NCBI GenBank assembly: GCA_001662655.1
Contig: KV460269.1
Direction: 5' to 3' (one strand)
DNA: 64,000 bases
Origin: Pseudogymnoascus verrucosus
Lineage: Eukaryota
Part shown: piece after piece, positions 8,649-33,374 of the stretch
Layout of the letters: each line of letters opens with the position of its first letter
How positions within the stretch are numbered: the first letter of the stretch is position 1
The notes under the pieces: generated by a model
Databases searched by the model: none
What the model was told of the DNA's origin: nothing
What the model saw: the letters and a program-made list of their open reading frames with translations, nothing else
Program-made: the position numbers and the translations under genes

Positions 8649-10391
8649 ATGGGTTATTATATCATAATCGTGGCATTGGTCGTCGCCATCGGCGGCTTTG
8701 TGTTTGGTGTTGATTCCGGCATCATGGGCACAACTCTTGGTCATAATACATTCAAGCTGTATATGCTAGGCCCAACGATGAAGAATCCATCGTTAATTGG
8801 TATATATACTCTCGACAATTTATTAACACCAAATGGCTAACGTTGTTGTAGGGGCAATCGTTTCACTATACAATACTGGACAAGCACTTGGAACCTTTAT
8901 AACAGGTTATTCAGCGGACAGATTTAGTAGAAGGTGGACAATTTGCGCAGCTGGCATTATATGTAAGGGCAAAATAGGCTTTTATTCCATGAACAAGTTC
9001 TAACACCCTACAGCAACCATTGGTGCAGCCTTGCAATCTGGGGCCGCAAATGTTGGGATGATGATCGCTGGTAGATTCATTGCCGGTCTTGGTTGTGGGA
9101 TGATTCTCACAGTCGTTCCCGTATACATCGCTGAAGTGTCGCCGCCCAAACAGCGAGGTATGATTGTGGGACTTCAGGGAATGATGATCTCCATCGGTTT
9201 CTTCACAGCAAATTGTGTGTTCAATTCCCCCAAACATACATCGATTACAACTGACAGTAGATTGTAGGGATAGGATATGGAGGGGATTTTGCGACGGGAG
9301 ACGCACAATGGCGCATTCCGCTTGCTATGCAAATCCCAGGAGCCATTTGTCTCTCCATCGGTTGTTTTTTTATCCCATATAGTCCTCGATGGTGTACGTA
9401 TAAATTGACTTCCGCTGTTTGTGCCAATGGCTAATAGGAGGCTGTAGTAATCCAGAAGGAGCGTTATGAGGAAGCTAAGAAAAGTATATCAACCAGCTCC
9501 TGTAACAGCAATAACCTAGCTAACCTCGAAACAGCTCTACTTGCCCTTTACGGAGATAAAGGAGAAGATTTTCTCAGCCAAGAGTTCTCGCAGATCCACG
9601 ACCAAATTCAACTCGAGCAGACTGCCAGCCGCACAAAGTTCCTGAAAGCTGCCGGGGAGCTCTTCTCCCGACGTTACATCCGGCGCACCGGCACGGCTTG
9701 TTTCATTCTCATGATGGGCCAGTTGAGCGGCTCAACGGTGATCCAGAATTACCAAAACACGTTCTACGCCGCCGTGGGCTTTACTGGGCGGACCGCGCTG
9801 CTAATCAGCGGTGTGTACGGTATCATGGGCGTTATAGGCCAAGTAATCTACCTCGTCGCTGTTGCTGATAAGTGGCCGCGCACCCGCACACTCTGGGTTG
9901 GCTCATTCTTCCTCTGCGTCATGATATCGATCTGCATGGCTCTGTCCGCACAATTTCCGGCAGGAACAACTAGCATTGCAGGTCCCCGCGCCGCTATCGC
10001 GTTCATCTTCATCTACTCCTGCGGCTATGCAGTATTCTTTAACGCCATGGTCTGGGTTGTGCCCTCTGAGCTATTCCCATTTTTTCTCCGCACCAAAGGC
10101 CTCGGATTAGCGGTATTTTCGAAGTCCGTCGTTGCTATTGTTTTGGCACAGATCACACCAGTGGCGATTCAGAACGTAGGATGGAGGTACTACGCCCTAT
10201 TCATTGCGACAAATTTTGCGGCGGCTTTCGTGTACTACTTTTTCCTTCCGGAGACTATGGGGAAATCGCTAGAAGAGATTGCGGAGCTCTTCGGGGATGC
10301 GGTCGTGACAGAGCACCAAGGCGACATCGATAATATAGAGAAAGAGAAGGATGTTATTCCTCAGAGCAAGCATGCTGAGACATCGGTCTAA
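8649..10391 (+). CDS. MFS sugar porter family transporter
   Basis: GGFVFGVDSG, DRFSRR, GRFIAGLG, PVYIAEVSPPKQRG, WVVPSELFP and PETMGKSLEEI motifs; about five GT-AG introns between 8800 and 9534. Confidence 0.93.
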
Positions 10392-10926
10392 GGAGGAACA
10401 TAAGTGTGGACTGGCTTCTGTTCGACTTGCAACTTCAACCTATTATCCTCATAGTCGACACATGCCCCTTCGTGCCAGTCTGGATTAAGTCGGCAAGTCT
10501 CCGTATTCTAGGAAGTGACAGTTACTTATTGCTCTTATTTCAATGTTGAGAGCGACTTTTATGTAGTTTCTTTGGTATATTTTATCATCAAATAATATAT
10601 CCATATATATGTTAAAACAAATCTAACTTAACGATTTGAAATGGTCACGTATTTAATGATATCAGTTCTCCTGGTGCAGATTCTCTTAATGGAATGGCTG
10701 GTCTCAATATTAGTCTTATAGAACTGTCTGCTCGTGAGTCCGATGAACTCTAGGCTCGGGAAGCTGAGAAGATATCGGGATATGCCTTGGCCCCGGTTAT
10801 GACACATACTCATCGGACAAAACAATTTATTCCCATACGATATTACTATGGCAAAGTATTCTGTAAGGTCCATGCTGCGCGGTTGACGCTCAACGGGGCA
10901 AGAGTGCTTATCTGGCGCCATCTCAT

Positions 10927-12199
10927 TTACCAGGTATAGAGAAAGGGAAGACCATACTTCATCTGCCTCTTCCGAGCCCACTGCCAACATTCGGGGGTTT
11001 GCAGGTTGAATCCCCTCATATGCTGATATTTGATAGGCATACGTACGTCGACTCCGGTTCTTGTAAGAGTATTTGGTCCTACCTGAGGCTCAGAACTAGG
11101 GAAATGCGGCTCTCTAGGTGCATCAAAGTAATGTAATCGCTTTTCCCAGAGGTCATTAAGATGCAGATAATCTAGTTGCTCCGTGTCCTTGACTAGGTAA
11201 TCAAGGATGAGCCGAAACTCGCCTGGGCGGCAAAGGTGTACCTCTTCCATCTCTAAGCCGTTGAGCTGCCTCTGGCGTAGAAAAGAAAGGAGTGCAGCCT
11301 CAGAAGTCCTAATCCCCCTTAGAGTGCATCGCTTTAAAAGTGGAAATCGACCCGATTGTATAACGCGGTCGAAAAAAAACTGCTCCTCGGACATCGCACG
11401 TGATAACTTGGATTAGCATAACCTGAACCAGTGGAGGTGAAGATCTTCGAGTACAGAACTACAATGTTTTAGGAAATTGCAGATAGCCATTGTGTGTCGT
11501 TCGCCAGTTATGAGAGCTTGCATTTCGTCGCTTTATTTATCTAGGTCTTTTCCTAGCTTATACACCATATGGTGCGATAGGCTCATCGATAGCCGCTTTA
11601 ACCGTTGTAATGAAGTGTATAGATCGATTTCTTGAATCGTCACTAGTCGATCAAGAGATAAACTGCAGCATGTGACACCGCTAAAAACGTCAAGAGACTC
11701 GATCGGAAGTTCGCTCGCACTAAGTGCATGCATCGTGGCCTCGAAGCAGTCTCCTGCAGTCTCCCAGACTGTCGTCCACTTACTACTGTCTTTTATCCAC
11801 CTGCACGTTTCAAACTTGATTCCATCTTGAACCACAAGAGACGCACAGATGGTAGGCAGGCACCTGATAAGCCGAGATGTAAGTTCTTCATAGACTGCCC
11901 AAGAGCATAGCAGCATCTTCTTGATTGCGAGGTTCTGGAAGGCCAACTAAAGTGTGATGTTTAAGAAGGTAACCGAATCCCTGCCGTTGAGTCACTGACA
12001 CAGCTCGTTGATGCTGCTCGCTCGCACTCATCGTAACCGTCTTGTTATAGAAGTGGCTTTTGAAAATGCCTTGAGATGACTTCGCATTAACTCCACGCCC
12101 TGTTAATCGAAGGCTGCATATGTCAGAGAGTGTGAGTAGAGCGACAATGCTATCTATAATCTCTACCGGCAAGCCATCAAGCCTTGGGCATAAATCCAT
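10927..12199 (-). pseudogene. F-box-like protein pseudogene
   Basis: N-terminal LDGLPVEIIDSIVALL..DICSLRLT F-box motif. At least one frameshift near 11850-11900 and in-frame TAA stops at 11533-11535 and 11413-11415, with no intron signals that would remove them. Confidence 0.7.
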
Positions 12200-13226
12200 C
12201 GTGATAGGTTAGGCGCTTTTCCAAAGAGAATACTATGGCAAACAGACTGATGGGGTTTTGTCGAGGCGGTTCAGAGTAGTTTGCACATGTAGAAGATCAA
12301 ACCCAACAGTGGCGTGGATGTTAGTTATCGTGAACGTCAGCTCGTCTAGTTAGGGTGGAGTAGGGGGTCTCGTTGGAGTCTACTGTATGGAAGTCAATAT
12401 TTGGCTCGTACCCCTCCCTGTACGTACTGTAGATACTGTTGGTTATTTCTCCCTGCTCGATTGGCTAGTATGTAGTAAAAAGCGGGTGGGGATGCATGAG
12501 AAGGCTGGCTATGCCATCAGCGAATTATTGGGTATAAATATAGTTACTGAGTGCAGAAAAGTATAATGTGTTTGGTGTGGTCATAACAGCTATATTTCGG
12601 GTGTTGTTCAACACATCCACAACCGTCCCCTCAAAATATGTCGATGATAAGACTCGAGGTATTGTTATATTTGGGATGCTGTACTTTGGTGAGACCACTT
12701 GATTGATCCGTATGTGATATGATATGTAAGGTAGTTATATTATGGAGCTCCTACTTGTATTTCCGAGTATTTTTATTAAAAAAATGAATGAATATAAACC
12801 TTCAAATGATCAACAGTGCCATCGATGCAGAAATATTTAGTTAATAGGTATAGATTTTTTTTAGCAGGTGAGGAAGAAAGAAAGGTCTATATGAATGCAA
12901 AAAGGGGCGTTGGGGAATACAGGGACGTGTATACATCTGCGAATGGGACTTCGAAAAGCGAGCGGCGGGACGCACTACGAGCAGACTACGGACATCGACG
13001 AGGCTGTGGTGGGGACGGTCTAGTCCAAAATCATTTTCGTTGCATCATCTTCTATCTCTGCCCCTAGCTTTTCCCTCCTACTTGGGCCCTATTATGGCCT
13101 ACACTCAAACGCCCCAGGGCGTTGGCTTTGATATCCACCACCTCCACCCGACCAATTCGGCCAATGCTAGTTAGTGACTCCTACGACCCCCTTTCTCTAT
13201 AGACAATATGCCGCGCGTGCGCTAGC

Positions 13227-26542: not shown

Positions 26543-29052
26543 TCATCGGTCAGAACCCTCATCTGGAAGGTTCGTATTATAGTCTTCAGGAGCTATTCCA
26601 AAGAGATTTTTGGGTTTTGGTGGTACGAATCCGGTGGCAGAGTTCAAGGGCGACACATTGGACGCGTTTCTTAATCCAAATAGATTAGTTGGTGGAGATC
26701 CAAAAAGAGTTCCGGCATTTGATGGTGTGGCAGTGGTGGCAGCATTAGATGGTGAAACACTGGGCTCGTTCCTAAATCCAAAAGGATTAGACGATGAGGA
26801 TTGTGCCGGTACGCCCGCATCGGGGGCTCTGGAAGTAGACCCAAAGAGAGAATGCGAGCTGGGAGCCGGAGTCGAGCGGGCTCCAAGCAAACCGAATGGT
26901 GATGTCGATCCCGTATTTGTGCTTGGGGGTGCAGCTCTACTAGCATCAAAGCCAGAAGTGGACGAAGACTGAGGTGGTGAAAACATCGTAAATCCGCTGC
27001 TAGTGGGCATGTTCGTGCGAGCTGCGGGTCCAGAAGTTGGAAAGAATGAGCCGGGGTTGGTTGTTGATGAGCTTGAGGCTAGCCTTTGACCAAAGATACC
27101 TCCGGCACTGGTCGATCTTGCCGTTAGGGATGGAAGAGGGGAGGCGAGCGGGGAGACCCTGCCAAAGATTGGGTTTGACCCCTGGCTTATAGATCCGGTA
27201 CCGTCGCCGGTATCATTTTGGGGTGCAGCGTTCGATGCCCCGGCTTCAGACGAGCTACCCGCAGGTGTCGTTATAGCGGGAGACGCAGCAGTGGAGGCGG
27301 GCGTATTAGGTGCAGCCGCCGAATTATGGCTAACGGTAGGTTCGGTCTGGTTCATATTAGCTAAATATGTTAGGCCAGTCTCCGCCGTAATACTTACAGA
27401 AACTGGAGCCTGTGGGGGGCTTGAGTTCGCCGATAGGGGTGCAGTAGCTGATGCTTGTGGAGATAAAATATTAGTACCACTGGAATCAAGTCCACCGCCT
27501 TGGGCAGATGACGAAGAGGCTCCTGTTGTCGTTGGATTTGTCGAAGCTGAAGCAGCAACACCCACAAAGTGACTAAACGGACCGCTAGTGCCGAAGGCTG
27601 TTCTCGGTGTACCAAACGGAACGCTACTGTTGCCAAAGCCACCCGTCCCAAACCCTTGTGTTGGCGTCTGGCCGAAGCCAGCTCCCTTCAGCCACGGTCC
27701 CCCCCAATCCATGGTATCACCGGGGCGGCCGAAGGTGTCGTGTGGAGGGCCACCGGTAGTATCATCGTATCCTAACGTTCTCGTGGTATACCCAGTGTTT
27801 GGAAGATACGTTGTATATCTTATTTCACCAGATGATCCAACAGTTGTGCCGCCATCTCCCGATCCAGTGCTCTCAGAACCACCACCACTAGAACGTGCCG
27901 AATTTTGGGGTTTCGTAACAAACGTTTGCCTCGTTGGAGCCCTGGCGTTTAGTATGAACCTTCGAGTCTCACTCACCGCTGGACAGTCCTCTGGCCGATG
28001 TTTGGCATCATGGACATGGTAATCACAGGCTCCATTCACCTTTGGCTTGTGGGCAAGAGACACGTCCACACCAAGGCGGAGTCTCTTGAAGATGTCTTCA
28101 AGGAAGGACGGCCATTGTTCTACCAAGTCCATATTCCTATCAATCTGACCAGCAGCATTAATTTGCGATATAGTTGCATAGGCTGCGAACTTGCGACAAG
28201 GGGACTCTGGATGCGCCCGCTCGTAGATGAGTTCTATATGCTCCGTGGGCATTGGGCGGGGTGCCAGGAAACTCTCGCCTTGTATGTAGGTACTCATAGC
28301 GATGTTGAAAAGGTTCGTCCAGCATATTGTCTCTGCGAACAAGCAAAGGCGGAGAAGCGCCAGTTGGTGGGCTTCCTCGGACTCCATAATCGGTTCGATC
28401 GGTGAACAGTAAGGGATGCCGTCGATTCGACCAGGCGAAACTGGAAAGGGCTGAGGTATGACAGCATTTTCTGGCGATGGTCGTGAAAAATCTGAGAAGC
28501 GATGGTTGAGAGCGTAGTCTTCTAATCGAAGCTCCTCTGGGGAATATTGATTATAATCTGTCTGGGTGCCAATGTGGTCGAATCGATCTCGCATATTATT
28601 ATTTCCCTGTGGCTGCACGAATATTGTTGCTGATACCTCCTCATGCGCTCGATATGCAACGCTGCCTGTCCCACGATTTGGTGGGAGGGCAGCATTTCCT
28701 AACTTGGTTGCTCCCACAAATATACCTCTGGGAAACTCGTCGAAAGGTCCTGGTCCATATCCTAAAACAGGGATCTGATTTTGATACAGCCAGCCGATTA
28801 AAAGGTCAAAGGCATCTGGACTATCCTCTGGTAGGCGGATCGTCTGCTCATCGGCCTCCTTGAATTTGCCATTTAGAGCCTTTTCAAAATACTCCGACTG
28901 CGATGTAAGGAGTGTCTTGTGAACAGAGTAACGCTTCTCTCTAGGTCCGACGTATACTGTCACAATGTCACTGCCCATGAGCCTAGATAGCATTAGTATA
29001 ATATGATGAAATTTGGGGCCACATACTGTGCAAGATTCGGGAAGCCTGCCAT
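26543..29052 (-). CDS. BTB/POZ protein with an inserted GLEBS-like motif and FG-rich low-complexity C-terminus
   Basis: Short exon 29052-29027, intron 28983-29026. VTVYVG..YSVHKTLLTSQSEYF..ALNGKFKEA..IRLPED..AF..GWLY is BTB; RFDHIGTQTDYNQYSPEELRLEDY; 14 FG dipeptides in the S/T/G/P/N-rich tail. Confidence 0.88.
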
Positions 29053-30249
29053 GACCAGGATTTCAGGGTCCAAAGACCGATCTAGCTAGGATAATATGAT
29101 ATGATCTGATGATTTTGATGAAACGACTTGTAGTACGGATCGACCATCCAGCACGCCGCGCACGTGGAAATGTCCAGATTGATAACCAAAACGACTGAAG
29201 TTGTTTGCTCCAGGTAAAGTTATTAGGTCACAACAGGCAGCAGAAAGTTTGTCACAACAAACGCTGCCAACAGGCAAGCGATTGGTCGCAACACCAGCGC
29301 AAACTGTCTCACAATCACTAACAAAGAATCCCTTCAAAAAGGTGAAAATTAAAGCATAATTCTTCCTATTGATGTCAACCCAACTGCAATGGTCGTTAAA
29401 TTGTATGGATCATCGAAATGTTATGATTCGAAACTGAGCTGGACATTCTTAAGATTGATGGTGGTGGCGGTCCAGGCAGCAACAAGGTTAACGACAGGGG
29501 GCTGACGAGGCTGAAAAATGTGCCTGTTCATACGTCAATGTGCCTGTCAGCCTCGTAGTCCCACCGCCAGCCTTAGTTGTTTTGGTAAAGGATTGTTGAC
29601 CCCACAAAACTTGGAATACATCACAGAGACCAATGTGTTAATTTTGAATATAGGCACAGGTAAAGTATTTGGTTCATGCTATGGATATGATTTTAGTTCG
29701 TTCCGGCGGTGGATTGTGGCTGATGTTGGATTGTTGGAACGTGTCTGAAGTAGGTTAAGCGCGTGCATATTCCAACACCCAGGTTCCATTCCCAGCGGCC
29801 CGCAGCACAGGGGTTGGTTCGTCCCGTTTCATGCCCCAGCGTCGGCTGAGGTTTACCTCATAATTAGCTCTACTAGCATGCTAGGAAGCTGCGGAGTGGT
29901 TCGGAGATGAAGCGTATGAAGCAAGGTCCGATGCAGCTCAGCCTGGCCCGGCGCCAAAAACAAAACAATGCCACCGATCCAACCCATCATCTTTCCAGAC
30001 GTGGTGTATAAATGAAGATTCATGTCCCATAGAATTTCCACAGTTCTTAACCAGCGAAACATTTGCACTACCTGCTACTGTAGAGAGATACACAAGTAGT
30101 TACTTGAGCTTCCAGCGTCTATTTTCTTTGTCTTTGTTAGCACTGCTTCTAAATTCTTTCACTTGTTGTTGTACTATATTCTGCTCCCAGTTCACAACTT
30201 TCCTCAAGATCAGTCACGACTCGTTTGCTATCATACTCTGGAATTCACC

Positions 30250-33200
30250 ATGACGGATTCCGCAGATATGGAGCTACCATCTTTGAAAGCACTGCAGACT
30301 GGAGAACAAATGGAGCTTCTCAACATCGTCGATTCTCTTCGTGCTGAAGGCCTTGGCGAGATTACAGCTCTTCCACAACTGATTGTATGCGGAGATCAAT
30401 CCAGTGGCAAGAGCTCTGTGCTAGAGGCCATTTCTGGTATTCCGTTTCCTAGAAAGGAAAACACCTGCACTCGATTCGCAACCGAAGTCATACTTCGCCG
30501 GTCGCCAGAGAGCAGGATATCAGTGTCTGTCGTCCCTTCCAGAGACCGAGAACAAGCCGATCGAGAGAAGTTGTTGAAGTTTCGTCACCAACTAAGCACA
30601 CCAGACGACTTTCCTGACTTGTTTGACAAAGCGAAGGATGCCATGCTCAATGTCCCGGGAAAGTCATTCTCAAAAGATATCTTGAGAATCGAGTTCTGTG
30701 GACCATCTCAACCGCAGCTGACACTCGTCGATCTTCCTGGCCTCATTCACTCACACATCGAAGCTGAACAACAAACACCGGAAGACGTCAAACTTGTCAC
30801 TGAATTAGTATCGGATTATTTGAAAAGTCCTCGAAGCATCATTCTCGCTATCGTATCTGCCAAGTACGACATCAACGTCCAGGTTATTCTCAATCGAGCT
30901 CGAGAGGTCGATCCCCAAGGAATTCGAACCCTAGGCATCATCACCAAGCCTGATACGCTCGTAAAAGGATCAGAATCAGAAGACTCATTTGTTAAATTAG
31001 CCAGAAACGAACGAGTCAAGTTTCGACTGGGCTGGCATGTTGTTAAAAACCTTGACTCTGCACATAAGGAATCCCTGGAATCTACACTCGAGACTCGAAA
31101 CACTGAAGAGAAAGCATTCTTCAAGGGTAGCAATTTCAAGAGTTTACCATCGCAGAACGTAGGCATTGAATCACTGCGTACTCAGTTAAGCAAGATCCTC
31201 TTCAACCAGATTCGACTTGAGTTGCCCCGCCTCGTGGATGATATCGAGCAGCGGATCCTTACTGCCAGAGCTTCAAAGGACAAACTTGGACCTAGCCGCA
31301 CTTCGATTGACGACCAGCGTTCATTCCTGATACAATTAAGTCAAACCTTTCAGACAATTTGCCAAGCGGCCGTTCGGGGCGATTATGACAATGATTTCTT
31401 CCATAGTGATGAACTGCGGGAGAAACGACTTTTCCAAAGTGATGAATTGTCTGAGAAACGTCTTTGCGCCATTTTGATGGACAAACACTTTGGGTTTGCT
31501 GATAACCTGCTGAAAAAGGGTTGTCAATGGACAATCGGGGAACGATCATTCGATACCGTTGGATTTACATTCGATACTAAACGTCGAACCCGTGAGGAGG
31601 CCATAGCAGATGCCTGTAGATTGTTAAAGAGAAGCCGTGGAAGAGAGGTGAAAGCTCCCCTACTTTATGCCCAGAAGCAATCCTATGTAGATTCGAATGC
31701 TAACAAATTTGGATATAGCTGCCTGGTCTTCCGAATCCACTCTTGGTGGGAGAACTTTTCCGTGAATATAGCCGCCCATGGGATACACTTGCTCGGATGC
31801 ATATCAAGAATACCTGGGAAATTACGAACAGATTTCTTGACCTTGTGCTCCAGCACCTGACCGATGATGATGTTCGCGAAAAGATCTTGCGTCTGTGGCT
31901 TGAACCCGTCATGGCGCAAAAGCTAGAGACGGCATACGGCAAACTGGACGAACTTCTTGAGGTTCATAAGGAGCATCCCTTCACCACCAATCACCACTTC
32001 ATGGATAACAGGAAGAAGCTTCAGCAGAAGGATACAAAGGATGAGATACAACAAAAACTGCTAGGTGTTGTAAAAGCCGGCCAAAAGCTATCAGTGGAGG
32101 ACATCACTCTACTCGTAATGAATTTGAAACCCGAGGTGAAGGCTGATATGGACACGATTGCTGCCGAAGATGCCTTTGACAACATGATGGCCTATTACGA
32201 GGTTAATATAACAGTTTGCACAACATCACTACGTAGTTTGCTAACATGGTGCAGGTTGCAATGAAGTTATTCATGGACAATGTGCCAACCTTGGCCATCC
32301 AAGCGCCAATTGTTCGAAAACTAGATGAGGTCCTGTGCCCAACCGCAGTTTTCCGCATGCCACCAGATCTCGTGGCGAAAATAGCCGGAGAATCCGAGGA
32401 GAAGATGCAAGAGCGCGAGGAAATTCTTTCAAAGTTAAGCACCTTGGAAACCGGGGCTCAGATATGCAGACAGTACGCTATGCGTCCTCAGTCCTGTGAG
32501 TATATCTTTGTCTTGTATGGGCGAGATTATGAGACTAATATCCTAGTCGCAACTGCTCCGTTGAACCCGCCATTTAAAGAATCGGCCGTTTCTTCAAGCA
32601 CCTCTTCTAGAACCGGCCTCTTTGGAGGTGGAACGCCATCCAAAGGCCTTTCCACCAATTCTGCATCTGGCGATCCTCCAAGTGCCTCTTCTGGAACCGG
32701 CCTCTTTGGAGGTGGAACGCCATCTAAAGGCCTTTCTACCAATTCTGCATCTGGCGATCCTCCAAGTGCCTCTTCTGGAACCGGCCTCTTTGGAGGTGGA
32801 ACGCCATCCAAAGGTCTTTCCAGCAATGCTGGATTTGGCGCTTCTTTAGGCTTAACCCCTGAAACCGGTCTCTTTGGGTCAGCCGCTAGGCCGCCATCAT
32901 CATCTCAGACTTCACAGACCGGTTTTGGCGGTTTTGGCCCTAGTGGAATCTCTCCAAAACCGAGTTCATCCGTGCTTTCTACCGAAGCGAACGCGCCAAA
33001 ATCCTATGCAACAAACTTTTTTGAGCAGTCAACTTCAGAAAACGCCGAGTTAGTTCCTATAACTTAATCCGTGTAATTAAACTGGCCTCAGGGTGCTAAT
33101 CATTTCCAGGCAGAGCGGAAAACGAAAATAAGCCTTTGCCTTGGCAGCCCATTTTGCCCATACGGTTTACCATGGACGCGTCCAATGGCCGACATGAGTT

Positions 33201-33374
33201 TGAAAATGGACATGGACCTACACCTCACCCCACGTTGCTTCAACACATCTCAGCGATGCCGCAGTGTATAAACTATTCAGCTGAGGTAAGGGCTACCCGT
33301 TACTTTTTGTGTTTGTGCTTATTTGGCATCTATAGGAGCTGAGGCTGTCTGATCTCGCGCACATGGCTAGGTAG
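30250..33374 (+). CDS. Dynamin-family (Mx-like) GTPase with GED, GLFG repeats and a probable C-terminal GLEBS-like motif
   Basis: G1 GDQSSGKS, G2 CTRF, G3 DLPG, G4 TKPD. Introns 31648-31718, 32202-32254, 32496-32546, 33049-33113 (or -33109) and 33286-33335. The 3' exons are less certain than the GTPase core. Confidence 0.85.
32601..32823 (+). repeat. 84-bp coding tandem repeat, about 2.7 copies (SSGTGLFGGGTPSKGLSTNSASGDPPSA)
   Basis: Units start at 32601, 32685 and 32769 and are nearly identical. Confidence 0.95.

What the first reader, a model, noticed from the sequence alone, without database searches (positions are those of the whole stretch)
26543..33374. Head-to-head BTB and Mx-like dynamin genes, both fused to Nup98-like FG and GLEBS parts: candidate nucleoporin-decoy or pore-targeted module
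Seen: two divergent genes ~1.2 kb apart with unrelated cores share the same extra parts. The BTB protein has HIGTQTDYNQYSPEELRLEDY plus 14 FG. The dynamin has 4 GLFG (7 FG in total) plus spliced QHISAMPQCINYSAEELRLSDL. Known: this matches the Nup98/Nup116 Gle2/Rae1-binding sequence (..I.A...Y...S.EELRL.DY). Rae1-Nup98 is hijacked by viral proteins (VSV M, SARS-CoV-2 ORF6), animal Mx GTPases are antiviral (MxB acts at the nuclear pore), and BTB proteins are often Cullin-3 adaptors. Head-to-head sensor/executor pairs with integrated decoys are known in plant NLRs and fungal het loci. Inference: a co-regulated pair that docks on Gle2 or the pore, or mimics Nup98, to sense or degrade mRNA-export antagonists. 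I do not know of a description of this arrangement.
Basis: partly seen in the sequence, partly recalled or inferred. Interest (0 to 1): 0.9.

Follow-up and report, generated by a model that had tools for sequence, protein, structure and literature searches.

The report
Two neighbour genes borrowing nuclear-pore parts
In a Pseudogymnoascus fungus, a BTB scaffold gene and a neighbouring Mx-like GTPase gene both carry pieces copied from the nuclear-pore protein Nup98, an unreported combination, but the GTPase's docking motif is out of frame in the only transcripts seen.

Summary
The window comes from a Pseudogymnoascus species. It holds a divergent pair of genes whose start codons lie 1.2 kb apart.

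- **BTB protein (804 aa):** it has a full-length Nup98-type Gle2/Rae1-binding sequence (GLEBS) in a flexible insert of the BTB fold, plus 14 FG.
- **Mx-type dynamin:** it has a GLFG tail, and its terminal exons encode a second GLEBS.
- **Homology:** a profile of 21 such segments hits only Nup98 GLEBS chains in the PDB (E 1e-10) and 1,937 cluster representatives overall. Separate BTB-only and dynamin-only profiles each find 19 of 19 true nucleoporins.
- **RNA contigs** of a close relative confirm all introns, including the one that splits the dynamin GLEBS. However, they join the FG exon to the upstream AG of a tandem acceptor, which gives a stop 7 codons later. The GLEBS isoform is therefore unproven.
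- **Adjacency:** it holds in four other Pseudogymnoascus genomes, but no dynamin lies beside any of 5 more distant BTB-GLEBS loci that have enough flank to judge.

Binding to Gle2, Cul3 adaptor activity, co-regulation and any decoy or immune role are untested. This scan had already noted BTB+GLEBS and Mx+GLEBS genes in other genomes. My literature searches found no description of either.

The parts
26546..29052 (-). BTB-GLEBS-FG gene. CDS exons are 29052-29027, 28982-27398 and 27346-26546, with the stop at 26545-26543. The product is 804 aa.
   Evidence: ORF and sequence. Introns 29026-28983 (44 nt) and 27397-27347 (51 nt, in frame) are seen as joints in RNA contigs. The script translation gives 804 aa with no stop, the same length as model V499_00756 (P0002).
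28766..28963 (-). N-terminal half of the BTB domain
   Evidence: Pfam PF00651 E 1.2e-8, profile positions 13-78 of 110. The AF2 model has pLDDT 80-88 here. The weak Foldseek matches are all BTB domains (SPOP, KLHL26, BCL6), none at E<=0.001.
28499..28681 (-). Nup98-type GLEBS, inserted in a low-confidence loop of about 120 residues between the BTB strands and the following helices
   Evidence: PDB phmmer found only 4 hits, all Nup98 GLEBS chains, E 0.14-0.17. The profile A2 reaches E 1e-10. Residues G108 T109 I141 Y147 S151 E154 L155 R156 D159 Y160 are invariant in 16 homologues, down to 36% identity to the window protein. Pfam PF21240 gives only 12.9 bits against a cutoff of 27.
26546..27733 (-). 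FG tail of the BTB protein. It includes the 51-nt intron at 27347-27397.
   Evidence: The 366-aa stretch scored holds 13 of the protein's 14 FG; the part as drawn here (from 27733) also takes in the 14th, at residue 426. 7.4% of residues are charged and 76% are S/T/G/N/Q/P/A. 0 of 5000 shuffles reach 13 FG.
29053..30249 (.). Shared 5' intergenic region between the two divergent genes
   Evidence: Sequence. The RNA contigs give no depth over 29051-30014, and dynamin contigs start at about 30064-30100.
30250..33048 (+). Mx-type dynamin gene, exons 1-4: 30250-31647, 31719-32201, 32255-32495, 32547-33048
   Evidence: Pfam Dynamin_N 2.5e-32 and Dynamin_M 1.6e-18. The top 9 PDB hits are Mx1/Mx2, E 2.6e-35 to 1.3e-29. 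All three introns appear as GT..AG joints in RNA contigs.
32547..33048 (+). GLFG tail (exon 4), with an 84-nt x2.9 tandem repeat at 32601-32840
   Evidence: P0018 of a related strain has two repeat units instead of three.
33049..33113 (+). Intron 4 with a tandem acceptor CAG|GCAG. The first AG ends at 33109 and the second at 33113.
   Evidence: Sequence. RNA contigs of X1, X2 and X3 join 33048 to 33110. With that joint the frame stops at TAA 33129-33131 and the product is 881 aa.
33114..33374 (+). GLEBS-coding terminal exons 33114-33285 and 33336-33371, with the stop at 33372-33374. Together they give the 944-aa long form.
   Evidence: The frame is open and the motif is completed across the intron. 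The 33285/33336 joint is present in RNA contigs of 3 runs. The same C-terminal motif occurs in annotated relatives. The in-frame link to exon 4 is predicted only.

Best explanation
These are two real, transcribed genes of a Pseudogymnoascus fungus. Each joins an ordinary effector core to parts derived from the GLFG nucleoporin Nup98/Nup145N.

**What is shown.**
- The BTB protein carries a complete Nup98-type Gle2/Rae1-binding sequence in a flexible insert of its BTB fold, and a long, nearly uncharged FG tail.
- Its neighbour is a fungal Mx-type dynamin GTPase with a GLFG tail and two terminal exons that encode a second GLEBS.

**Most likely mechanism (inferred, not shown).**
- The GLEBS clamps its carrier onto the top face of the Gle2 propeller, in the place of Nup98.
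- The FG tail lets the protein partition into the FG phase of the pore.
- The BTB core (as an oligomeriser or a Cul3-type adaptor) and the GTPase would then act on Gle2 or Gle2-bound material at or near the nuclear pore.

**Caveat for the dynamin.** The GLEBS-bearing form needs the downstream AG of a tandem acceptor. The transcripts seen use the upstream AG and end 7 codons later. In this genus the GLEBS form is therefore at best a minor or conditional isoform.

**The pairing.** The head-to-head arrangement is synteny at the level of the genus. Both fusions are older and more widespread than their adjacency, so I do not read the pair as an obligate two-gene module.
For: **GLEBS homology.**
- Profile A2 (12 BTB and 9 dynamin segments) against the PDB: the top 8 of 10 hits are Nup98 chains, E 1.3e-10 to 1.5e-5; the 7 best span Nup98 159-215, the eighth only the C-terminal half of the motif.
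- The same profile against 1.84 billion representatives gave 1,937 hits at E<=1e-3.
- I scanned the 145 newly returned proteins among the best 150 with Pfam. Most pass the PF21240 cutoff, and 19 carry the Nup98 autopeptidase domain.
- The BTB-only and dynamin-only profiles each hit 19 of 19 of those nucleoporins (46.8-213 bits). The best of 950 shuffled decoys scored 6.3 bits.
- The acidic pair that salt-bridges Rae1 (E201/E202 of Nup98; passages of PMC3783196) is E/D-E in 21 of 21 segments.

**Conservation.** The GLEBS residues are invariant across 16 BTB homologues. 14 of 120 annotated dynamin relatives carry the motif at the C-terminus, from Leotiomycetes, Diplodia and Talaromyces.

**Expression.** Spliced RNA contigs cover both genes.

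**Mx likeness.**

**FG enrichment.**

**Adjacency.** Locus tags are consecutive in V499, V492, V493 and V500.
Against: - No binding test could be run because no Gle2 sequence was obtainable.
- Pfam PF21240 is below its cutoff in every protein of both families (best 21.9 bits against 27). It gave no hit at E<=0.5 in P0018, whose GLEBS differs from the window's by a few residues and a 2-residue deletion upstream of an identical core, nor in P0008, P0013, P0014, P0017, P0030, P0031 and P0035. True Leotiomycete Nup98-96 (P0232) is also not listed at 1e-5, so this test is weak.
- RNA contigs of 3 runs (one study) use acceptor 33110, which puts the dynamin GLEBS out of frame. A P. australis gene model (P0024) ends the same way.
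- Within the genus, the final aromatic residue of the dynamin motif is L or I in several species, and P0020 scores only 26.5 bits.
- Foldseek found no match at E<=0.001, so Cul3-adaptor status is open.
- tblastn found no dynamin in any of the 17 metagenome BTB loci. Five of them have 2.8-10 kb upstream of a BTB-GLEBS gene.
Confidence: 0.5

Rival explanations
1. Integrated-decoy immune pair. The two genes form a co-regulated sensor/executor module. Their Nup98-like parts act as bait for antagonists of the Rae1-Nup98 mRNA-export hub, with Mx-type GTPase and ubiquitin-ligase outputs.
For: - Among the 145 newly returned proteins of the best 150 GLEBS-profile hits, the partner domains include HET (P0265, Lithohypha guttulata), PARP with CAP-Gly (P0258), Deltex DTC (P0150, P0238), TRAF zinc finger (P0158), RING (11 proteins, plus one weak), BTB and dynamin (P0222).
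- The GTPase is closest to Mx1/Mx2.
- Viral proteins target Rae1-Nup98 (introduction passage of PMC3783196).
- Human MX2 forms pore-mimicking FG condensates (title and start of the abstract of 10.1101/2023.06.22.545931).
Against: - Neither gene has an NLR or HET part.
- The pairing is absent from 5 of 5 more distant BTB-GLEBS loci with enough flank.
- The neighbours are housekeeping genes.
- There are no data on induction.
- The dynamin GLEBS is out of frame in the transcripts seen.
- The RING and multi-GLEBS hits whose names I looked up come from a plant and a wasp, not from fungi.
Confidence: 0.15
2. In this genus the dynamin's GLEBS exons are a relic. The protein made is an Mx-type GTPase with an FG tail only (881 aa), so the 'shared parts' of the pair reduce to the FG tails.
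For: - The joint 33048 to 33110 appears in RNA contigs of 3 of 3 RNA runs.
- The P0024 gene model ends with the analogous short tail.
- The terminal Y of the motif is replaced by L or I in several Pseudogymnoascus proteins, and P0020 also has R to H and scores 26.5 bits against 58-71 for the other full-length motifs.
- Seven substitutions between the window and the relative are listed within exon 5. By my own reading of the codons, all are amino-acid changing.
Against: - The frame is open through both exons in the window and in relatives' gene models (P0018-P0022, P0025).
- The only indel in exon 5 is 6 nt, which keeps the frame.
- The core of the motif is unchanged between the window and the relative.
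- The intron position inside the motif appears shared with Cadophora, because the P0033 model breaks at the same residue.
- Contigs keep only the dominant path and can hide a minor isoform.
- All three RNA runs come from one study.
Confidence: 0.3
3. Gle2 sponge. The proteins mainly titrate Gle2 away from Nup98 and so damp mRNA or pre-60S export. The BTB and GTPase cores serve only for oligomerisation.
For: Overexpressed Nup98 GLEBS mislocalises Rae1 and causes nuclear poly(A) RNA accumulation in HeLa cells (introduction passage of PMC3783196, which cites earlier work). Many of the profile hits carry 2-8 GLEBS copies.
Against: - The idea does not explain the conserved FG tails or the GTPase.
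- It needs high expression, about which nothing is known.
- Each protein here has a single GLEBS.
Confidence: 0.1
4. The motif docks Bub3, the checkpoint paralogue of Rae1, rather than Gle2.
For: GLEBS-type motifs of Bub1, BubR1 and BuGZ bind Bub3. This rests on recalled knowledge and on paper titles in the listings.
Against: The profile found only Nup98 chains among solved structures and no Bub1 or BubR1 chain at E<=10. It also aligns along its full length with the GLEBS of true Nup98-96 proteins.
Confidence: 0.05

Closest known systems
Nup98 / Nup116 / Nup145N (GLFG nucleoporins with a GLEBS)
   Same: The GLEBS is homologous over its whole ~57 residues, including the acidic pair. The FG/GLFG repeats are cohesive and nearly uncharged. 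The BTB copy closely resembles the GLEBS of Leotiomycete Nup98-96 proteins.
   Different: There is no autopeptidase or pore-anchoring domain (PF04096) and no Nup96 part. The cores are a BTB fold and an Mx-type GTPase. In the BTB protein the GLEBS sits inside the BTB fold; in the dynamin it sits at the extreme C-terminus, after the FG repeats.
Mx GTPases: human MX2/MxB and the fungal MxF clades (PMC11789081)
   Same: The G domain is closest to Mx1/Mx2 among solved structures. There is a thematic link to the pore and to FG nucleoporins.
   Different: From the title and start of the abstract, MX2 gathers FG proteins in trans into condensates. Here the FG repeats are part of the same chain. A term search of the MxF paper found 0 mentions of nucleoporin or Nup98. 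No antiviral activity is known for this protein, and I did not test its placement in MxF1 or MxF2.
BTB-Cul3 substrate adaptors (SPOP, KLHL, KBTBD)
   Same: The N-terminal BTB half matches by Pfam, and weakly by fold (65-73 columns, rmsd 1-2.4 A).
   Different: The would-be substrate-binding part is a linear motif in an insert of the BTB fold, not a MATH or Kelch domain. Cul3-binding features were not tested. No fold match reached E<=0.001.
Bub1 / BubR1 / BuGZ GLEBS motifs that bind Bub3
   Same: These are precedents for a GLEBS-type motif used outside nucleoporins to dock a WD40 propeller (recalled).
   Different: The motif here is of the Nup98 type. The profile matches no Bub1 or BubR1 chain.
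Earlier notes of this scan on other genomes (e1-7578433, e1-7640740, e1-7567081, e1-7701585)
   Same: They describe BTB+GLEBS+FG genes and an Mx-like dynamin with a GLEBS tail.
   Different: Here both lie head to head, and transcript data are available. The transcripts support the BTB gene model but question the dynamin's GLEBS isoform.

Membership tests
Nup98-type GLEBS (Pfam PF21240) | A motif of about 57 residues that aligns along its whole length with Nup98 157-213 | tested here: met
   Profile A2 against the PDB: profile positions 9-68 align with Nup98 159-215, E 1.3e-10 to 6.2e-9. The BTB-only and dynamin-only profiles each hit 19 of 19 autopeptidase-bearing nucleoporins, while the best of 950 decoys scored 6.3 bits. 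Those 19 had been pre-selected by the combined profile.
Nup98-type GLEBS (Pfam PF21240) | The conserved acidic pair that salt-bridges Rae1/Gle2 (E201/E202 of Nup98; E154/E155 of Nup116) | tested here: met
   E/D-E in 21 of 21 aligned segments. The role of these residues is taken from passages of PMC3783196.
Nup98-type GLEBS (Pfam PF21240) | Score above Pfam's gathering cutoff (27 bits) | tested here: not met
   The window BTB protein scores 12.9 bits. The best relative is P0021 at 21.9 bits. There was no hit at E<=0.5 in P0018, P0008, P0013, P0014, P0017, P0030, P0031 or P0035. A true Leotiomycete Nup98-96 (P0232) is likewise not listed at 1e-5, so the model under-detects fungal copies.
Nup98-type GLEBS (Pfam PF21240) | Binds Gle2/Rae1 | not testable with these tools
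   No genome is held for the window, and no Gle2 sequence was available from any permitted source. I therefore did not use complex prediction.
GLFG nucleoporin (Nup98/Nup116/Nup145N orthologue) | C-terminal autopeptidase / pore-anchoring domain (PF04096) | tested here: not met
   Pfam found no PF04096 in either window protein or in the 17 relatives scanned.
GLFG nucleoporin (Nup98/Nup116/Nup145N orthologue) | An FG-repeat domain with few charged residues | tested here: met
   13 FG in 366 aa and 7 FG in 167 aa, with 7-10% charged residues, well above shuffles. PF13634 is only sub-threshold, and only in relatives.
Mx / fungal MxF dynamin-like GTPases | A dynamin G domain plus middle domain, closest to Mx among dynamin-superfamily clades | tested here: met
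   Dynamin_N 2.5e-32 and Dynamin_M 1.6e-18. The top 9 PDB hits are Mx1/Mx2 (125-106 bits), ahead of Drp1 at 104 bits. The margin is modest, and I made no tree against MxF1/MxF2.
Mx / fungal MxF dynamin-like GTPases | Antiviral activity | not testable with these tools
   No data.
BTB-Cul3 substrate adaptor | BTB fold | tested here: met
   PF00651 E 1.2e-8. The AF2 core is confident. The best, weak fold matches are BTB domains.
BTB-Cul3 substrate adaptor | A Cul3-binding surface (3-box and loop motif) and Cul3 binding itself | not tested
   The GLEBS insert lies directly after the N-terminal BTB half. I made no residue-level comparison.
Head-to-head sensor/executor gene pair | Adjacency conserved across lineages that carry both genes | tested here: inconclusive
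   Locus tags are consecutive in 4 other Pseudogymnoascus genomes, where orientation was not checked. In strain O988 the two genes lie on different short contigs. No dynamin was found in 5 of 5 more distant BTB-GLEBS loci with 2.8-10 kb upstream. The two closest loci (L001 and L002) have only 1.15 kb upstream.

The most novel reading that the evidence does not exclude
The Nup98 GLEBS, often together with FG repeats, may be a portable bait or address tag that eukaryotes have repeatedly fused to innate-immunity-type effectors: Mx-like GTPases, HET, BTB, RING, Deltex, PARP and TRAF domains. These fusions would guard the Gle2/Rae1-Nup98 mRNA-export hub. In Pseudogymnoascus, two such guards would have been brought head to head under one promoter region. 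A 4-nt tandem-acceptor switch would decide whether the Mx-like GTPase is made with or without its Gle2 hook.
Probability: 0.12. Interest if true: 0.9.

Novelty: new variant of a known kind. Interest (0 to 1): 0.6.

Why it matters
If the GLEBS and FG parts work as they do in Nup98, these would be the first natural cases of a ubiquitin-ligase-type scaffold and an Mx-type GTPase hard-wired to the Gle2/Rae1 export factor and to the FG phase of the pore. Human MX2 is reported to reach the same end by gathering FG nucleoporins in trans. A fungal Mx relative with FG repeats in cis would therefore give a simple genetic system for asking what Mx proteins do at pores.

The wider survey shows that the GLEBS is a far more mobile module than the literature I searched suggests: 1,937 cluster representatives match the profile, many with 2-8 copies and with RING, DTC, PARP, HET or TRAF partners.

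The transcript result also warns that several database models of the dynamin's C-terminus rest on an unverified acceptor.

Tried and rejected
- **Window's own genome:** none is held, so I could fetch neither the species' Gle2 and Nup98 nor a count of its GLEBS genes.
- **Complex prediction:** not used. No Gle2 sequence was available from the window, the search results or the stated reference scope.
- **RNA search:** The look-up of sequencing runs listed no holder that is on record as RNA. The runs I laid are contigs whose RNA nature I inferred from their GT..AG joints. They cannot give isoform ratios, transcript ends or expression levels.
- **Parts without cover** in the RNA contigs (for example 27846-28327 of the BTB gene) say nothing.
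- **Third homologue search:** restricted to BTB residues 1-335, it added only one protein (Hymenoscyphus fraxineus, P0283), so adjacency outside the genus could not be read from locus tags.
- **Fold search of the BTB model:** no match at E<=0.001. It confirms only the BTB half.
- **Chance motif rejected:** I considered that the EELRL core might be a chance motif. I rejected this because the alignment extends over the whole hairpin, including the N-terminal GTG..[FY] strand.
- **Local exchange rejected:** I considered that the two GLEBS copies were exchanged locally between the neighbours. This is unlikely, because each fusion occurs on its own in other genera.


Full report
**What is there.**
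- The window is fungal. The BTB protein is 98% identical, and dynamin exon 1 100% identical, to models V499_00756 and V499_00757 of Pseudogymnoascus sp. VKM F-103.
- On the minus strand lies a BTB gene. I set its model from the sequence and from spliced RNA contigs: exons 29052-29027, 28982-27398 and 27346-26546, giving 804 aa.
- On the plus strand, 1,197 nt from it, lies a dynamin-family gene with exons 30250-31647, 31719-32201, 32255-32495 and 32547-33048, followed by two short terminal exons.
- The flanking genes are housekeeping: Sec24, CPSF100, a HAD/SAK protein and the DNA primase small subunit on one side; a GH5 glycosidase, a TPR protein and an adaptin on the other.

**The BTB protein.**
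- Pfam finds the N-terminal half of a BTB domain (E 1.2e-8) and a sub-threshold Nup98_GLEBS match (12.9 bits against a cutoff of 27).
- An AlphaFold model of residues 10-340, built on 17 sequences, has mean pLDDT 67. The BTB core and a helical region (model residues 195-302) are confident. The ~120 residues between them are mostly of low confidence, apart from short elements of the GLEBS.
- Foldseek gave no match at E<=0.001. The weak matches are all BTB domains.
- All 16 homologues found, down to Chlorociboria at 39%, keep the insert's key residues unchanged.
- The tail holds 13 FG in 366 residues against 2.6 expected from its own composition (0 of 5000 shuffles reach 13). Its charged-residue content is 7.4%.

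**The dynamin.**
- Exon 1 carries Dynamin_N and Dynamin_M.
- Its 9 best solved relatives are Mx1/Mx2 (125-106 bits), ahead of Drp1 at 104 bits. 'Mx-like' is therefore fair, though by a modest margin.
- A recent paper defines fungal MxF clades. My term search in it found no mention of nucleoporins or Nup98.
- The tail has 4 GLFG and 7 FG, three of them in an 84-nt x2.9 tandem repeat.
- All 18 proteins with 52-100% identity over exon 1 in the search for longer proteins have at least 2 FG after residue 650, and 17 of them have at least 4. Proteins at 48% identity or lower mostly have none.

**Is the motif a true GLEBS?**
- The BTB segment alone found only four PDB sequences, all Nup98 GLEBS chains, at a weak E of 0.14-0.17.
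- A profile of 21 segments (12 BTB, 9 dynamin) gave 10 PDB hits. The top 8 are all Nup98 chains (E 1.3e-10 to 1.5e-5); the 7 best are aligned over Nup98 159-215, the eighth only over the C-terminal half of the motif. The other two are designed TIM barrels.
- Against 1.84 billion cluster representatives the profile found 1,937 proteins at E<=1e-3 and 255 at E<=1e-10.
- Of the best 150, I scanned the 145 new ones with Pfam. Most pass the PF21240 cutoff, and 19 carry the Nup98 autopeptidase.
- Several true Nup98-96 proteins, such as P0232 of Amylocarpus, are matched by my profile at the expected place (residues 184-239, E 5.6e-15) yet are not listed for PF21240 at 1e-5. Failing the Pfam cutoff is therefore weak evidence against membership.
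- Profiles built from the BTB rows alone and from the dynamin rows alone each hit 19 of 19 of these nucleoporins (46.8-213 bits). The best of 950 shuffled decoys scored 6.3 bits. These 19 had been found with the joint profile.
- The acidic pair that salt-bridges Rae1 (passages of PMC3783196) is kept in 21 of 21 segments.

**Transcripts.**
- No run on record as RNA was listed. However, contigs of X1-X3 (one study, a close relative rather than the same strain) skip every predicted intron with GT..AG ends, whereas X7 runs through them as DNA does.
- These contigs confirm both BTB introns, the three internal dynamin introns, and the intron that splits the dynamin GLEBS (33285/33336).
- The joint between the FG exon and the GLEBS exon is 33048>33110 in all three runs.
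- The acceptor is a tandem CAG|GCAG. With the first AG the frame reads 7 more codons to TAA 33129-33131, giving 881 aa. Only the second AG (33114) gives the 944-aa GLEBS form.
- Database models of relatives use the second AG (P0018, P0019). The P. australis model (P0024) ends as the first-AG form does.
- Contigs keep only the dominant path, so a minor isoform cannot be excluded.
- In favour of a coding role: the frame is open through both exons in the window and in relatives, the only indel is 6 nt, and the core of the motif is conserved.
- Against a coding role in this genus: the motif's last aromatic residue is L or I in several species, P0020 is degenerate at 26.5 bits, and the listed substitutions in exon 5 are amino-acid changing by my own reading of the codons.

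**Distribution and pairing.**
- 14 of the 120 annotated dynamin relatives carry the motif at the C-terminus. Nine of these were in the profile. The other five are P0019, P0020, P0025, P0033 and P0131. They come from Leotiomycetes, Diplodia and Talaromyces.
- BTB and dynamin locus tags are consecutive in four other Pseudogymnoascus genomes (V499, V492, V493, V500). In strain O988 the two genes lie on different short contigs.
- A metagenome scan gave 17 BTB loci. Seven show the GLEBS (L001-L006, L008). tblastn with dynamin exons 1 and 2 hit none of the 17.
- Upstream flank is 2.8-10 kb in L003, L004, L006, L007 and L008, but only 0.85-1.15 kb in L001, L002 and L005.
- Both fusions therefore predate their adjacency and occur apart from it.

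**Reading.**
- Shown: two expressed genes, both with Nup98-derived parts.
- Inferred: the parts dock on Gle2 and enter the FG phase.
- Open: Cul3 adaptor activity, coupling of the two genes, and any immune role.
- Literature searches for GLEBS with dynamin or fungi, with BTB, and with ubiquitin ligase found no description of such fusions. For most papers I saw only the listings and the starts of abstracts. I read passages of PMC11789081, PMC3783196 and PMC13189347.
- This scan had already noted BTB+GLEBS+FG genes (three notes) and an Mx-like dynamin with a GLEBS tail (one note) in other genomes.

Noticed in passing
proteins P0138-P0282, not in the window: GLEBS-type motifs occur in 1,937 cluster representatives, often in 2-8 copies. 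Partner domains include RING, Deltex DTC, TRAF zinc finger, PARP with CAP-Gly, and HET (Lithohypha guttulata). Multi-GLEBS proteins come from a plant (Castilleja foliolosa) and a wasp (Microplitis mediator).
   Followed up: partly
P0232 and other Nup98-96 proteins: Pfam PF21240 does not list the GLEBS of several true fungal Nup98-96 proteins at E<=1e-5, although the motif is plainly there. The model seems tuned to other lineages.
   Followed up: partly
window 32601-32840: An 84-nt unit encoding one GLFG is repeated 2.9 times. A related strain's protein (P0018) has one unit fewer, so FG number varies between strains.
   Followed up: partly
window 31399-31465: A 33-nt tandem duplication (82% matches) inside the dynamin stalk-coding region duplicates an 11-residue acidic/basic stretch.
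   Followed up: no
P0009 (Pseudogymnoascus sp. VKM F-3775 model, 1405 aa): This database model fuses the BTB gene with the neighbouring DNA primase small-subunit gene. It is probably an annotation artefact, and it shows that the same left neighbour is present in that genome.
   Followed up: no
L011, L015, L016, L017 around 10001-13200 (three BTB hits each); L012, L013, L014 (two each): Several metagenome contigs hold two or three BTB genes in tandem about 1.5 kb apart. They are distant relatives of the window's BTB core and show no GLEBS match.
   Followed up: no
P0268 (Coleophoma crateriformis) and P0222 (metagenome dynamin-like protein): A BTB protein carries two GLEBS copies, one inside the BTB fold and one after it. 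A dynamin-like protein carries two C-terminal copies.
   Followed up: no
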